IMG/VR virus record: IMGVR_UViG_2826849342_000003
From: a virus
Lineage: Duplodnaviria; Heunggongvirae; Uroviricota; Caudoviricetes
DNA length: 17,599 bases
Direction: 5' to 3' (one strand)
A program made the position numbers. Positions 12,001 through 14,929 of the stretch are shown piece after piece. Position 1 is the first letter of the stretch. Each line of letters starts with the position of its first letter.

Positions 12001-14929
12001 AGTATTCAGTGTTGGGATTTGAAAATCACATGAACGTGTTTCATGAGAACAAACATGGGTTACCCGAGGCGCTGGCCCGTGGCTTGGCCGTGTTCCTGAA
12101 CACTACCGCAGTGGATAAGTATTTCCGTCGCTTCAACGGGCATACACAGGTCAATGCAACCGACCTCAAGATGATTAAGTACCCAAGCCGTGACACTCTG
12201 ATAGAGCTTGGCAAGTGGGCTATGCAACAAGAAACTCTCACGCAAGAACATATTGACGCTAAGCTAGGAGCTCTGACTGCATGAACAACCAAAATGATTA
12301 TATTGAGGCCGCTCAGCAAATTATAGCATCCTTAGGCCTGCCCAGAGCGCAGCAGAATGAGCGTTCTGCTTTGTGTTTGCTGGCACTCCTGAACCTCACG
12401 CCGGGAAAAGCATGGGCCGACGCGGAAAATCCGCTTGTGGGCATTACACCAATCATGAATTGGGTTCGGGAGCACTACGGCAAGGTCTACGCACCCAATA
12501 CTCGTGAGACATTCCGCCGCCAGTCTATGCATCAGTTCTGCGCTGCTGGAGTAGCCCTCTACAATCCGGACAAGCCCGATCGCCCAGTGAACAGCCCGAA
12601 GGCTGTTTATCAGATCGAACCTGCTGCTCTGTCCACGCTACGCACTTTCGGCAGCCCGGCATGGCACGATAGCCTTGCAACCTATTTAGCCGAGCGTGAA
12701 ACGCTGGTTACCCGCTATGCTAAGGAGCGCGAACAGAATCGTATCCCTGTTGAAATTGCTGCGGGCCAGCAAATAACCCTCAGTCCCGGCGAGCACAGCG
12801 AACTTATCCGTGCCATAATAGAGGACTTCGCCCCACGTTTTGCTCCGGGTAGCGTGCTGGTCTATGCTGGCGACACTGGCGAAAAGTGGGGCTACTTCGA
12901 CGCTCCACTGCTGGCCGGGCTAGGTGTTGATGTGGATTCACACGGTAAAATGCCAGATGTGGTGCTACATTTTACTGCGAAAAACTGGCTGCTGCTGGTT
13001 GAGTCTGTCACCAGTCATGGACCGGTTGATGGGAAGCGGCATGCTGAGCTTGCCAGGCTGTTTGCCGGATCAACAGCCGGACTTGTCTATGTGACCGCTT
13101 TTCCAAATCGCTCCATCATGGGACGATATCTTGGTGAAATCGCATGGGAAACAGAGGTATGGGTGGCTGATGCACCTTCTCATCTTATTCACTTCAACGG
13201 AGTGCGATTTCTTGGCCCCGACTCTACTGAATGAGTACAGGACCAGATAAATAGCCCGGCCCATGCGCCGGGTTTTTCTTTGCATATCCCCTCCTGTTAT
13301 CTGTCCCCTTAAAAAATAAATCACTTTAAAAATCAGTTAAGTAATAATTTTTCGCCATAAAAAGCACCGGCGGCATTTACATGAAAATCACCAAAAGTTA
13401 TATTTATTTCAAGCCAGAAACATCGCGCCCTTACACAGGGCTACATAAATCAGTCGTACGGCGCGACTTAACCCGCCGCAAAATGCTCTTTAACAACCTG
13501 GAGCTTTACAGTGTCAATGACCTGTTTAGACCCTTACACGTAAACGTGCTGTATCATCGGGTACGATCCGGTCGATGAGAGAGTATCCCCGCGCGAGAGC
13601 GAGAACGGCGTGAGAACGGGCAACACTGGCAGGAAGTTGGCGCTGACCAATACAGGGAATGTTTTGGGGTGTGGTGAAGGGTTCATGGACGGGAATATGT
13701 CGCACGTAAAGCGGCGAGGCCCGAGGGACTATTGCTGAAGATAAGTAGGCCGAATCGGGTCGAAATGGGTCTCCCACCTGCCACATCGCCAAAGCATTTC
13801 CGAGAAAGGACGGTATTGACTGCGTGTGATGTCGGGGCTATATTGGAAGAACACCTCATAAAACGGGTGTCGGGATTGCTACCCCGCTGACAATCGAGGC
13901 GATACAGACGCGCCAGCGTCTTTTTTTGTATCGACATACACGCACATCTTATCAATGGTGGGCTGTATGGGGCCGACTTCAGTCGGGCTGGTTCCCTTGA
14001 TTGCCAGTTGTAGCAACCCTGTACAGTCCACCGCCAGCGAGCTTGCTACCTCCTGCGGTGGTTACCAATCACCAATCACCAATCACCAATCACCAATCAC
14101 CAATCACCAATCAAGGAGGCTGCCATTATGGCTACTATCCCTGCCCTTTCTCAACCTGAAATCACCATTTCCAATGGCCGCGCTGTTACTACGTCCTTTG
14201 CCGTTGCCGAATATTTTTGCAAGCGACACGATAACGTATTACGTGCCATTGCAAATATTGAATGCTCAGCGAAATTTAACACCCTCAATTTTGAGGACGT
14301 TACCTACACCGACGCCAAAGGCGAACAACGCCCAATGTACCAAATCACCAAAAACGGATTCGTCTTCCTGGTGATGGGATTCACTGGTAAAAAAGCCGCT
14401 GCTTTCAAAGAAGCCTACATCGCTGAGTTCGATCGCATGGAAAAACAACTATGGGAACAAAAACAACTGGCCCTGTCTTCTCCTGCGATGAACATCAACT
14501 ACCCCCCTCGTGGTTCTCAGATAACCATCCCTACGCCACGATGAACTATGTTGATCGCAAGGTTATCAGCCTTGATGCTTCCGTGCTCTTCGATATGCCA
14601 AGCCCAACTATGCGCATCCTCAATGAGCTACACAGCAAAGGCTATAACGTTGACGCCGCTGTCGCCGAATTTAACGCCTTCAAGCATCTGACGGAAGAAA
14701 TGCGCCGTAAATTGCTGGACATTTCCCGCACATCGGAAAAATCTTCCCGCTTTGGTTTCAACGTAAATCTTTAATTAACCCCATCCCCGACCACATATCG
14801 GGGATTAAATTAAATATCTGGATTAATTAACCGGAGGATTTGTCATGCTCAAACCTCACTACGGAACCGCATTAGTTTCTCGCGAGGACGTTAAACCCGG
14901 CACAGCAATTCTTTACAATGAAGTGGTCA

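What the first reader, a model, noticed from the sequence alone, without database searches (positions are those of the whole stretch)
13376..13905. PL-like promoter followed by a consensus boxA, with no N-like ORF downstream
TTTACA-17-TATATT (13376-13404) points away from cI, and an exact TGCTCTTTAACAA boxA follows at 13484-13496, the arrangement of PL-nutL. The next 400 bp contain no convincing plus-strand ORF with an RBS. The N gene may have been lost, or antitermination here may be protein-independent (as with put RNAs in HK022-type phages), or this is a different boxA-dependent mechanism. No clear boxB hairpin follows the boxA.
Basis: partly seen in the sequence, partly recalled or inferred. 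Interest (0 to 1): 0.5.

Follow-up and report, generated by a model that had tools for sequence, protein, structure and literature searches.

The report
Conserved boxA leader RNA, no N
This is the early-left (PL) promoter of a Shiga-toxin-phage-like prophage, followed by a previously uncatalogued, widely conserved structured leader RNA that starts with a ribosomal-type boxA and is found in many temperate phages that have no N antiterminator, so it may be a new way for phages to make RNA polymerase ignore stop signals.

Summary
The promoter (13376-13404), the exact boxA (13484-13496), the absence of an ORF and the terminator are all real. A second promoter (13816-13844) drives IsrK (13851-13926, which owns the terminator). 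C4 RNA and a Rha/Ant gene follow. An A-rich-loop hairpin (13537-13548) follows boxA.

From boxA to 13800 the sequence is 94% identical to the phi80 PL-to-"N" leader. Homology breaks where the phi80 N ribosome-binding site would be.

The N-less junction is not decay. Viable Stx2a phages (PA8, PA2, TL-2011c, the O104:H4 phages) share it.

In more than 120 viral contigs, and in Edwardsiella, Providencia, Klebsiella and Hamiltonella phages, boxA is followed at fixed spacing by a ~135-nt seven-helix RNA (window 13510-13644). Of its 37 pairs, 24 show compensatory changes. It has no Rfam match and no similarity to HK022 put.

A long stem with covarying arms and variable cargo comes next. Upstream promoters and downstream genes are unrelated between phages, and no N homologue was found.

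Most likely this is a Nus-factor-dependent, N-independent antitermination/anti-Rho leader. That function is inferred, not shown.

The parts
13253..13274 (+). Intrinsic terminator ending the cI / methylase / restriction-enzyme transcript (the immunity operon)
   Evidence: Terminator scan: 8-bp stem, 6 GC pairs. Conserved in PA8, Ss-VASD and phi24B, where it is annotated tRM.
13363..13403 (+). Two operator-like motifs, AGCACCGnnnnnATTT (13363-13378) and ATCACCnnnnGTTATAT (13387-13403). They overlap the -35 and -10 of PL.
   Evidence: Each motif has its only other exact copy in the cro-cI intergenic region, at 9964-9979 and 9986-10002. Binding by cI is inferred.
13376..13404 (+). PL-type early-left promoter TTTACA-17-TATATT. 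The transcript is inferred to start near 13411.
   Evidence: Promoter scan. Phage F039, which has a different promoter and immunity, becomes identical to the window starting at CAAGCCAGAAAC (13410-). The promoter position is conserved in 55 distinct upstream regions. phi80 pL is annotated at the same relative place.
13428..13468 (+). Lineage-specific 5' leader with two small hairpins: GCCCU-UACAC-AGGGC (13428-13442, the stem of lambda boxB) and AGUCG-UACGGCG-CGACU (13452-13468)
   Evidence: Read from the sequence. Conserved in all Oslovirus-type copies and absent from phi80-type leaders. No function tested.
13484..13496 (+). boxA, an exact match to the rrn consensus TGCTCTTTAACAA
   Evidence: Single exact match in the window. 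A boxA with at most 2 mismatches sits at the same position in all 83 distinct family sequences and in all divergent homologues. Annotated 'nutL boxA' in phi80.
13510..13644 (+). Conserved ~135-nt structured core RNA.
- P1: 13510-16 / 13638-44
- P2: 13522-26 / 13628-32
- P3: 13532-34 / 13618-20
- Hairpin B: 13537-13548 (CACG-UAAA-CGUG)
- P5: 13549-13583
- P6: 13589-91 / 13606-08
- P7: CGC-GAGA-GCG, 13592-13601
   Evidence: RNAalifold on 83 sequences. 99.5% of cells are paired, against 31-47% when the 3' partners are slid. Covariance model R1 finds Edwardsiella, Providencia and Hamiltonella phage copies at 78-104 bits. 24 of 37 pairs have compensatory changes, and all 7 helices have at least one. 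Coordinates. No Rfam match even at E<=10.
13655..13801 (+). Long stem 'E2': 5' arm 13655-13675 (GU-rich), 3' arm 13776-13801, enclosing a 100-nt four-way-junction 'cargo' (13676-13775)
   Evidence: Fold z = -4.5, 0 of 200 shuffles as stable. 69 of 74 loci with the 5' arm also have the 3' arm, with 14-208 nt of unrelated cargo. Distal arms covary: own-partner duplex -16.6 versus cross-partner -11.7 kcal/mol. Ss-VASD, F039 and JNE122398 keep the stem as a simple hairpin with wobble and compensatory changes. The cargo is ~91% identical to the sequence just upstream of N in 933W, phi24B and HK97.
13816..13844 (+). isrK promoter TTGACT-17-TATATT. This is the start of a different module and marks the homology breakpoint with phi80.
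   Evidence: Promoter scan. Alignment with phi80 breaks at ~13801.
13851..13926 (+). IsrK sRNA with its own intrinsic terminator (stem 13906-13921 plus T7)
   Evidence: Rfam RF01394: 61.8 bits, gathering score 50. Terminator scan.
13951..14038 (+). C4-type antisense RNA
   Evidence: Rfam RF01695: 76.4 bits, gathering score 45.
14128..14774 (+). Rha/Ant-type regulator gene, the first protein gene of the operon. It is split into 14128-14544 and 14541-14774 by a TGA. Its Shine-Dalgarno region (CAAUCAAGG, 14108-14116) is complementary to a C4 loop.
   Evidence: PHROG 995/518/63 hits for both halves. PGAP annotates 'Rha family, internal stop' in PA8. Complementarity.

Best explanation
The region is the cI-controlled early-left promoter (PL) and the long untranslated leader of an N-less lambdoid prophage. 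The prophage is of the Oslovirus / 'Eru1' Stx2a-phage type and here is IS-riddled and defective.

The leader is a composite RNA module:
- a lineage-specific 5' segment;
- an rrn-consensus boxA;
- 13 nt later, a conserved ~135-nt seven-helix RNA that includes an A-rich-loop hairpin;
- a long stem (E2) whose arms bracket a variable insert.

Proposed mechanism (inferred):
- NusB/NusE bind boxA on the nascent PL transcript.
- Together with NusA/NusG, and probably with the adjacent folded RNA, they stay attached to RNA polymerase and make it resistant to termination without any phage N protein.
- Resistance would certainly cover Rho, across more than 700 nt of untranslated RNA, and possibly also the IsrK intrinsic terminator.
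- PL-initiated transcripts would therefore read through into ant, kil, gam and recT.
- Transcripts from the internal isrK promoter lack the leader and would stop at the same terminator to give IsrK.
- The E2 stem is probably an RNase III-type processing or RBS-positioning helix, like the lambda N-leader hairpin and the rrn leader-trailer helix.

Shown versus inferred:
- Shown: the identity and anatomy of the elements, their conservation, the RNA structure and the absence of N.
- Inferred by analogy: Nus recruitment, antitermination and RNase III cleavage.
For: Position and promoter:
- The element sits in the PL position, and operator-like motifs are shared with OR.
- The promoter position is conserved across 55 unrelated upstream regions.

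Homology and anatomy:
- The sequence is 94% identical to the phi80 leader that lies between the annotated pL/O-L and gene N. That record annotates 'nutL boxA' and 'nutL core'.
- boxA is always present at fixed spacing from the core.
- The core RNA is over 90% conserved, whereas the flanks are unrelated.
- Covariation supports the structure: 24 of 37 pairs, 98% paired, slid controls 5 or fewer.
- G-U wobble substitutions fit only the + strand, and the antisense fold has z = 0.0.
- Homologues in Edwardsiella, Providencia, Klebsiella and Hamiltonella phages share the synteny cro | cI -> leader -> small ORFs, kil, gam, recT. None has an N annotated.

Absence of N:
- tblastn with phi24B, phi80 and lambda N finds nothing in the window or in 24.8 kb of the PA8 early region.
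- First ORFs after the leader fall into 50 unrelated clusters. Ten representatives have no Pfam N_peptide hit and no PHROG antiterminator hit.
- Llarena et al. 2021 (PMC8044961) state that Eru1 phages lack N, CII and CIII homologues. TL-2011c carries this leader.

Need for antitermination:
- Sense-strand terminator-like sites lie within 2 kb downstream in 60 of 79 distinct loci (median 458 nt), against 17 of 79 on the antisense strand.
- In PA8 the only strong sense terminator early in the operon is IsrK's.

rrn analogy:
- In rrn, boxA is combined with a GU-rich boxC that lies in the 5' strand of an RNase III-cleaved leader-trailer helix (PMC10250234).
Against: - No functional data of any kind exist. 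Everything about Nus factors, read-through and RNase III is by analogy.
- rrn-type boxA complexes are established mainly against Rho-dependent termination, not strong intrinsic terminators (my knowledge).
- The GU-rich arm lies ~160 nt from boxA, not the 18-19 nt seen in rrn.
- The thermodynamic z-score of the core alone is modest: -1.5 for the window and -2.2 for PA8.
- Most of the 83 sequences are close relatives. P6/P7 lie inside the 25-mer used for retrieval, so their support rests on only three divergent phages, and on an alignment fitted to the model.
- The window's own copy has a G-to-A change that breaks the apical P5 pair, and its operon is truncated by IS elements. This particular copy may no longer matter to its host.
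- PA8-type phages have no second site in the PR operon, unlike nut or put systems.
Confidence: 0.5

Rival explanations
1. Vestigial nutL. The leader is a leftover of an N-using ancestor. When the isrK-C4-ant module replaced N, boxA and the RNA stayed behind and no longer do anything in this lineage.
For: - The homology with phi80 breaks exactly at the N ribosome-binding site.
- The E2 cargo is shared with the N leaders of 933W and HK97.
- Oslovirus-type copies are 97-98% identical to each other, so recency cannot be separated from selection within that lineage.
- The window's copy carries a helix-breaking change.
Against: - Lacking N is the rule, not the exception, in the family: 50 unrelated first-gene clusters and no N family hit.
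- Distant N-less phages (APSE-2, Edno5, PSTCR7lys) keep every helix through compensatory changes, which requires selection on the RNA.
- phi80 'N' is itself not a recognisable N, and phi80 has no annotated nutR.
Confidence: 0.13
2. The conserved RNA is a cis-regulatory, processing or trans-acting RNA unrelated to antitermination. Examples: an RNase III- or ribosome-controlled switch for the first gene, a stability element, or a stable sRNA or decoy released by cleavage at the E2 stem. On this reading boxA serves only to protect its synthesis from Rho, or is incidental.
For: - The E2 stem ends 0-40 nt before the Shine-Dalgarno of the first gene in most loci, often followed by a small hairpin CCCGCAUCAGCGGG.
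- Many members carry a strong SD plus a 3-codon mini-ORF right after the core.
- The element occurs only once per phage, in PL. This fits a local regulator better than a genome-wide antiterminator.
Against: - The first gene differs from phage to phage, and in Oslovirus-type phages it is replaced by a promoter. A gene-specific translational switch is therefore unlikely.
- The invariant linkage and spacing to boxA and the enrichment of downstream sense terminators point to transcription elongation.
Confidence: 0.22
3. Classical N-type system with an unrecognised partner. Hairpin B (CACG-UAAA-CGUG) would be a boxB bound by a so-far unidentified small basic phage protein encoded elsewhere in the operon.
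For: - Hairpin B has an A-rich 4-5-nt loop in all members, and its stem changes in a compensatory way (CACG/CGUG, CACA/UGUG, CGCA/UGCG, CGC/GCG).
- phi80 annotators called it the nutL core and called the next gene N.
- One relative (L081) has a boxA plus hairpin between cro and cII and a basic 74-aa first ORF.
Against: - N-boxB pairs co-vary between phages. Here the RNA is nearly invariant while the candidate proteins are unrelated.
- No ARM-type N was found by Pfam, PHROGs or tblastn.
- The hairpin lies 41 nt from boxA and inside a larger fold.
- The L081 nutR-like hairpin (GGCUGAUUUAUCAGCC) does not resemble hairpin B.
Confidence: 0.1
4. Nothing is there. The promoter and boxA are chance matches in an intergenic spacer.
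For: Promoter-like hexamers alone are not rarer than in shuffles: 3 found, 1.7 expected in 1.5 kb.
Against: - The exact 13-mer boxA.
- Homology with the annotated phi80 pL/nutL.
- Positional conservation of the promoter.
- Covariation in the RNA.
Confidence: 0.01

Closest known systems
Phage phi80 pL-'nutL'-N leader (GenBank X13065, JX871397)
   Same: - Direct homologue: window 13484-13800 is 94% identical to phi80.
- Same order of operators/pL, boxA, 'nutL core' hairpin and long leader.
   Different: - phi80 has a one-base weaker boxA (TGCTTTTTAACAA) and a different 5' segment and immunity.
- phi80 continues into a 98-aa gene called N followed by terminator tL1A. The window continues into the isrK promoter.
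- The phi80 annotation is 'putative' and covers only 9 + 12 nt, not the 135-nt fold.
Lambda nutL / N antitermination, with the RNase III hairpin in the N leader
   Same: - Position: first element of the PL transcript.
- boxA is present.
- An A-rich-loop hairpin follows it.
- A long, probably RNase III-type stem lies just upstream of the first gene.
- Terminators lie downstream.
   Different: - No N protein.
- No nutR.
- The hairpin is 41 nt (not ~8 nt) from boxA, with a 4-bp stem and a 4-nt loop.
- An additional 120 nt of conserved structure has no lambda counterpart.
HK022 put RNAs (protein-independent processive antiterminators)
   Same: - A cis-acting structured RNA at the start of the PL transcript of a lambdoid phage that lacks a functional N.
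- Conservation of the RNA irrespective of downstream genes suggests a host target.
   Different: - put is ~70 nt, has two stems, starts at +3 and has no boxA.
- put occurs twice (putL, putR) and binds the beta' zinc-binding domain (PMC9378689).
- This RNA is ~135 nt with seven helices, lies 100 nt from the transcript start, always follows boxA, and is present once.
- No sequence or model similarity.
rrn operon antitermination leader (boxB-boxA-boxC plus leader-trailer helix, rrnTAC)
   Same: - Exact boxA consensus.
- Small hairpins upstream of boxA.
- A GU-rich strand downstream that forms one arm of a long helix bracketing a variable 'cargo'.
- No phage protein needed.
- Protects untranslated RNA.
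   Different: - boxC is 18-19 nt from boxA in rrn. Here the GU-rich arm is ~160 nt away, with a structured RNA in between.
- The cargo is 14-208 nt rather than an rRNA.
- Dependence on Nus factors, SuhB or S4 is untested.
P1 immI (c4-icd-ant) and Gifsy-1 isrK-orf45-anrP modules
   Same: The downstream neighbours: IsrK and C4 match Rfam above gathering scores. A C4 loop is complementary to the ant/rha ribosome-binding site.
   Different: These are the module downstream of the finding, not the boxA leader itself. In P1 and Gifsy-1 the module is not placed behind a cI-controlled PL with boxA.

Membership tests
Lambda-type nut site / N antitermination | boxA (consensus CGCTCTT(T)A) near the start of the early transcript | tested here: met
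   Exact TGCTCTTTAACAA at 13484-13496, ~73 nt after the inferred start.
Lambda-type nut site / N antitermination | boxB: a 5-bp stem with a GNRA-like pentaloop a few nt downstream of boxA | tested here: not met
   The nearest downstream hairpin with an A-rich loop (13537-13548) is 41 nt away. It has a 4-bp stem and a UAAA loop, and it is part of a larger fold. A hairpin with the lambda boxB stem (13428-13442) lies upstream of boxA and has the loop UACAC.
Lambda-type nut site / N antitermination | Cognate N protein with an arginine-rich motif encoded in the phage (normally the first PL gene) | tested here: not met
   - No ORF lies between the leader and isrK.
- tblastn with three N proteins finds nothing in the window or in the PA8 early region.
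- Small proteins from PA8 and other family members do not hit PF25694 or any antiterminator PHROG.
- PMC8044961 reports the lack of N in Eru1 phages.
Lambda-type nut site / N antitermination | Second site (nutR) downstream of cro | tested here: not met
   PA8 has no boxA downstream of cro. No second model hit appears in PA8, phi80, Edno5, APSE-2, PSTCR7lys or KO-TP1. The gene after cro starts immediately.
HK022 put RNA | Sequence/structure similarity to putL/putR (two-stem ~70-nt RNA starting at the transcript 5' end) | tested here: not met
   The nhmmer profile and covariance model R1 give no hit in HK022 27500-33000. The architecture differs (PMC9378689).
HK022 put RNA | Acts on RNA polymerase without any protein factor (beta' zinc-binding domain) | not testable with these tools
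   Needs in vitro transcription and rpoC mutants.
rrn-type (Nus factor, N-independent) antitermination leader | High-affinity boxA matching the rrn consensus | tested here: met
   13 of 13 identity. The family shows 0-2 mismatches.
rrn-type (Nus factor, N-independent) antitermination leader | boxC (UCUGUGUGGG) 18-19 nt after boxA, inside a leader-trailer helix cleaved by RNase III | tested here: inconclusive
   A GU-rich strand (UUUUGGGGUGUGGUG, 13662-13676) forms the 5' arm of a covarying long helix around variable cargo. It lies ~160 nt from boxA, however. The rrn spacing is taken from PMC10250234. RNase III cleavage is untested.
rrn-type (Nus factor, N-independent) antitermination leader | Dependence on NusB/NusE/NusA/NusG/SuhB and suppression of Rho termination | not testable with these tools
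   Requires genetics or in vitro transcription.
New RNA family defined here (boxA-linked PL leader RNA) | Seven-helix fold at fixed distance after boxA, downstream of a repressor-controlled promoter next to cI | tested here: met
   The window scores 222.8 bits with model R1. Structure counts are, and synteny. The family is absent from Rfam 15.
Rfam isrK (RF01394) and C4 (RF01695), the neighbouring module | Score above the curated gathering threshold | tested here: met
   61.8 versus 50 bits, and 76.4 versus 45 bits.

The most novel reading that the evidence does not exclude
boxA plus the adjacent ~135-nt seven-helix RNA would be a new class of processive antiterminator. A phage leader RNA would recruit the host Nus-factor machinery (the way rRNA operons do) and, through its own fold, lock RNA polymerase into a termination-resistant state without any phage protein.

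This would be used by a large group of N-less temperate phages of Enterobacterales. They include the high-virulence Stx2a phages (O157 clade 8 PA8/PA2, O103:H25 TL-2011c, the O104:H4 outbreak phage), phi80, HK225 and the APSE phages of aphid symbionts.

In the Stx phages it would let the same IsrK terminator give an sRNA from one promoter and read-through mRNA from the other.
Probability: 0.35. Interest if true: 0.85.

Novelty: new variant of a known kind. Interest (0 to 1): 0.62.

Why it matters
- **Open question for N-less phages.** Lambda N/nut and HK022 put are the textbook ways temperate phages override terminators. A large set of lambdoid phages, including the Stx2a phages linked to the most severe EHEC disease, have been reported to lack N (PMC8044961), with no explanation of how their early operons are read through.
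- **A concrete candidate.** The comparison here turns up a conserved, covariation-supported RNA fused to an rrn-type boxA. It is absent from Rfam, and in GenBank it is annotated only as a 'putative' 9 + 12-nt nutL in phi80.
- **If it is an antiterminator.** It would be a third type of phage antitermination device, mechanistically bridging the rRNA and lambda systems. It would also be a handle on early gene expression and Ant-mediated induction in Stx phages.
- **If it is not.** It is still a widespread, unexplained structured RNA at a key regulatory position.
- **Testability.** The question is directly testable with simple reporter constructs.

Tried and rejected
1. Rfam at gathering thresholds and at E<=10. 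Only isrK, C4 and STnc100 appear, and nothing covers 13405-13850. Nothing was found in the divergent phages either.
2. put RNA homology. Rejected: no nhmmer or model hit in HK022.
3. A hidden N gene. tblastn, Pfam and PHROGs on the window, PA8 and representatives of the family were all negative.
4. A coding explanation for the conserved stretch. No ORF is conserved, flanks are unrelated, and G-U wobble and compensatory changes fit an RNA.
5. Perfect boxA as a hallmark of N-less phages. All 22 isrK-linked copies are perfect, but they form one lineage. phi80-type boxA (one mismatch) is also found with non-N genes, so this is not informative.
6. Long-range pairing of CACG (13537-40) with CGUG (13609-12), as RNAalifold proposed. 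I replaced it with the local hairpin B, because the one variant (L037) compensates locally and breaks the long-range pair.
7. The genome-contig scan with a 17-mer was too unspecific. Taxonomic breadth therefore rests on the phage collection and IMG/VR.
8. Literature searches by sequence strings and by keywords found no description of this RNA. The phi80 genome paper is not held.
9. isrK/C4 next to the leader in APSE phages. Not found, so the leader-isrK linkage is specific to the Oslovirus type.
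Full report
**1. What is at the coordinates**

The promoter scan finds TTTACA-17-TATATT at 13376-13404 on the + strand. TGCTCTTTAACAA occurs once in the window, at 13484-13496. An exact 13-mer is expected about 5e-4 times in both strands of 17.6 kb (my arithmetic).

None of the + strand ORFs in 13381-13890 is credible. One starts inside the promoter, and the others use GTG or TTG starts without a conserved counterpart. A hairpin followed by T7 lies at 13906-13921. The core of the observation therefore holds.

- A second promoter, TTGACT-17-TATATT, lies at 13816-13844.
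- A C4-type antisense RNA follows at 13951-14038 (76.4 bits).
- A Rha/Ant-type gene follows at 14128.

**2. Genomic setting**

The window is an IS-riddled prophage. Its gene order is as follows:

| Coordinates | Strand | Feature |
|---|---|---|
| 9709-9912 | - | cro |
| 10008-10721 | + | LexA/S24-type cI |
| 10761-12284 | + | Eco57I-type methylase |
| 12281-13234 | + | BsuBI/PstI endonuclease |
| 13253-13274 | + | terminator |
| from 13376 | + | the finding |

This is the lambda layout (cI, rexAB, then PL) with a restriction-modification pair in the rex position.

The closest relatives, at 96-97% identity, are Stx2a phages of the PA8, PA2, VT2phi_272, ArgO145 and phi346 type (genus Oslovirus). 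These include a laboratory lysogen, WG5::PA8. In PA8 the same 735-bp non-coding stretch is followed by rha, kil, gamL, recT, exo and more. The replication genes are a DEAD-box helicase and a DUF7146 primase-like protein.

TL-2011c, the type Eru1 phage, carries the same leader. Llarena et al. state that Eru1 phages lack homologues of lambda N, CII and CIII (PMC8044961).

Two operator-like motifs overlap the promoter. Each has its only other exact copy in the cro-cI intergenic region.

**3. Homology with phi80 and the N question**

Window 13484-13800 is 94.3% identical to the phi80 early region. In that record it lies between the annotated O-L region and the gene called N.

The complete phi80 record annotates the following:
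- three CI operators and the pL -35 and -10;
- 'nutL boxA' and 'nutL core', both marked putative;
- N;
- terminator tL1A after N.

The 'nutL core' corresponds to window 13537-13548, CACG-UAAA-CGUG. The homology stops at about 13801, just before the phi80 N Shine-Dalgarno. In the window the isrK promoter follows instead.

The last 130 nt (13663-13794) are also ~91% identical to the sequence immediately upstream of N in 933W, phi24B, HK97, HK106 and mEp234. The isrK-C4-ant module therefore sits where N sits in other phages.

This is not a simple deletion:
- In all 22 isrK-linked copies retrieved, isrK lies at one of two fixed distances from the leader.
- These copies include infectious phages.
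- phi80 'N' has no Pfam hit and belongs to a PHROG of unknown function, whereas phi24B N hits PF25694.
- phi80 has no annotated nutR.
- tblastn with phi24B, phi80 and lambda N finds nothing in the window or in 24.8 kb of the PA8 early region.

**4. A widespread conserved leader**

In every contig a boxA lies ~100 nt upstream of the 25-mer. The variants are GCTCTTTAACAA, GCTTTTTAACAA, GCTCATTAACAA, GCTATTTAACAA and CTTCTTTAACAA.

The ~165 nt from boxA to ...GGCGCUGA are over 90% conserved in 83 distinct sequences. By contrast:
- the 5' segment falls into several unrelated types;
- the promoter/operator region differs with immunity;
- the sequence after ~13650 is highly variable.

Phage F039 has a different promoter but becomes identical to the window at the predicted +1.

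The best sigma-70 match keeps a fixed distance to the leader start in 12 distinct Oslovirus-type upstream regions. The same holds in 30 of 43 distinct phi80-type upstream regions.

The first ORFs after the leader fall into 50 unrelated clusters among 101 loci. phi80 'N' accounts for 6 of them. Ten representatives hit no N or antiterminator family.

The core is present in 224 of 5426 complete E. coli genomes and in 109 phage records. These include the O104:H4 Stx2a phages and HK225.

**5. RNA structure**

RNAalifold on the 83 sequences predicts a nested multi-helix fold. I changed one helix to the local hairpin B, because the only variant (L037) compensates locally.

The seven helices in window coordinates:

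| Helix | Coordinates |
|---|---|
| P1 | 13510-16 / 13638-44 |
| P2 | 13522-26 / 13628-32 |
| P3 | 13532-34 / 13618-20 |
| Hairpin B | 13537-48 |
| P5 | 13549-83 |
| P6 | 13589-91 / 13606-08 |
| P7 | CGC-GAGA-GCG, 13592-13601 |

On the 83 sequences, 99.5% of cells pair, against 31-47% when the 3' partners are slid. Seven pairs show two-sided changes.

P6 and P7 lie inside the retrieval 25-mer, so I looked for divergent homologues. BLAST found copies in these phages:
- Edwardsiella phage Edno5
- Providencia phage PSTCR7lys
- Klebsiella phage KO-TP1
- Hamiltonella phages APSE-2 and APSE-8

All have the synteny cro | cI, then the leader, then small ORFs, kil, gam and recT, and none has an N annotated.

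A covariance model built from the E. coli-type alignment (R1) finds them at 78-104 bits (E from 1e-17 to 1e-24). It finds nothing in the HK022 PL/PR region or in the phi24B nutL.

On the resulting 18-sequence alignment:
- 98.2% of cells pair;
- 24 of 37 pairs have compensatory changes;
- every helix has at least one;
- slid controls give at most 5.

Caveat: that alignment is fitted to the model.

By eye, P7 is CGC/GCG, CCC/GGG or CAC/GUG, with a conserved GAGA loop. Hairpin B is CACG/CGUG, CGCA/UGCG or CGC/GCG, always with an A-rich loop.

The single-sequence z-scores are modest: -1.5 for the window, -2.2 for PA8 and 0.0 for the antisense strand. The window's own copy has one G-to-A change that breaks the apical P5 pair.

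**6. The stem after the core (E2)**

Window 13655-13805 folds with z = -4.5 into a ~20-bp stem closing a four-way junction.

- In 69 of 74 loci that have the 5' arm (GGGAAUGUUUUGGGG...), the 3' arm (...CCAAAGCAUUUC) follows after 14-208 nt of unrelated 'cargo'.
- The distal parts of the arms covary. Examples are GGGGUGUGGUG/CACCACACC, GGGAUUGGAUG/CAUCCAAUC, GGGGUGAAG/CUUCACC and GGGGUGAGUU/AACUCACC. The own-partner duplex averages -16.6 kcal/mol, against -11.7 for cross-partners.
- Ss-VASD, F039 and JNE122398 keep only the stem, as a hairpin, with wobble and compensatory changes relative to the window.
- After the 3' arm most phages have a small hairpin and the Shine-Dalgarno of whatever gene comes first. 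933W-type phages have N there. Oslovirus-type phages have the isrK promoter.

This resembles the RNase III-sensitive hairpin of the lambda N leader (my knowledge). It also resembles the rrn leader-trailer helix, whose 5' strand contains GU-rich boxC and the RNase III site (PMC10250234).

**7. How it probably works**

The RNA is nearly invariant while the promoters, repressors and downstream proteins change. Its partner is therefore most likely a host component.

boxA is the known NusB/NusE site of the lambda nut and rrn leaders (established knowledge; PMC2800207 and PMC5725501 are listed).

Three observations suggest the transcript needs protection from termination:
- It is untranslated for ~717 nt, from 13411 to the rha start at 14128.
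- It must pass the IsrK terminator to reach ant, kil, gam and recT. In PA8 this is the only strong sense terminator early in the operon.
- Across the family, sense-strand terminator-like sites lie within 2 kb downstream of the core in 60 of 79 distinct loci. Only 17 of 79 have such sites on the antisense strand. The median distance is 458 nt.

I therefore favour a Nus-dependent, N-independent antitermination/anti-Rho leader in which the folded core takes the place of N-boxB.

The model makes a testable prediction. PL transcripts should read through the IsrK terminator, while isrK-promoter transcripts should stop there. All of this is inference.

The rivals are a vestigial nutL, a processing, translational or sRNA function, and an unrecognised N-like partner. 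They are listed with their tests in the rival explanations.

**8. Comparison and novelty**

The element is a homologue of the 'putative nutL' of phi80.

- It fails the tested defining features of a lambda nut site other than boxA: no canonical boxB, no N and no nutR.
- It is not a put RNA.
- It shares boxA and a bracketing helix with rrn leaders, but not their spacing.
- It is absent from Rfam 15.
- Sequence-string and keyword searches of the literature found no description of it.

I rate it a new variant of a known kind: a phage early-leader antitermination-type RNA. The function remains to be shown.

Noticed in passing
window 4167-4372 (-): Full-length match to Rfam STnc100 (155.9 bits; gathering score 47). 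It lies downstream of a 152-aa ORF (4792-5250, -) and next to an IS600-like copy.
   Followed up: no
window 13951-14038 and 14108-14116: A loop of the C4-type RNA (CCUUGAUUG) is complementary to CAAUCAAGG, which overlaps the Shine-Dalgarno of the rha/ant gene. This is the arrangement by which P1 C4 blocks icd/ant translation.
   Followed up: partly
window 14070-14111: Six tandem copies of the heptamer CACCAAT lie between C4 and the rha ribosome-binding site. Related phages (F039, L023) have one or two copies. The expansion lengthens the C4-target region.
   Followed up: partly
window 14128-14774: The Rha/Ant gene is split by a TGA with an ATGA overlap at 14541-14544. Both halves match the same PHROG (995). 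PGAP flags the same 'internal stop' in phage PA8, while Ss-VASD has it intact. This could be a pseudogene or two coupled ORFs.
   Followed up: partly
window 13676-13775: The 100-nt four-way-junction 'cargo' inside the E2 stem is ~91% identical to the stretch just upstream of the N gene in 933W, phi24B, HK97, HK106 and mEp234. It is absent from Ss-VASD and F039, which keep only the stem. This is a separately mobile structured insert of unknown role.
   Followed up: partly
window 13428-13442: The hairpin GCCCU-UACAC-AGGGC has exactly the stem of lambda boxB, but a non-GNRA loop, and it lies upstream of boxA (the rrn order). F039-type phages have GCCCUGACACAGGGC.
   Followed up: no
window 10761-13234: An Eco57I-type methylase and a BsuBI/PstI-type restriction endonuclease sit between cI and PL. 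They occupy the position of lambda rexAB and are presumably expressed from the prophage.
   Followed up: no
window 2522-3678, 5356-6050, 6164-7320, 8841-9535, 14927-16131, 16365-17062: The IS load is heavy: two IS600-like copies, two iso-IS1, one IS2-like and one IS1. The Eru-type helicase (7361-8023) is truncated, and the PL operon is cut right after rha. The prophage is defective, and the pattern is Shigella-like.
   Followed up: no
loci L013, L024, L049, L053 and others (IMG/VR relatives): Many family members have, directly after the core RNA, a strong Shine-Dalgarno (AGAGGAG) and a three-codon mini-ORF (AUG AAG CAC/CAG UAA). A hairpin GCGGACAGACCGC follows. This is reminiscent of the lambda bar minigenes.
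   Followed up: no
L081 5440-5515 (-): One relative has a boxA (CGCTCTTTAACAA) plus a hairpin GGCUGAUUUAUCAGCC between cro and a cII-like gene, a nutR-like site. Its first PL ORF is a basic 74-aa protein. The PA8/window type has nothing comparable.
   Followed up: partly
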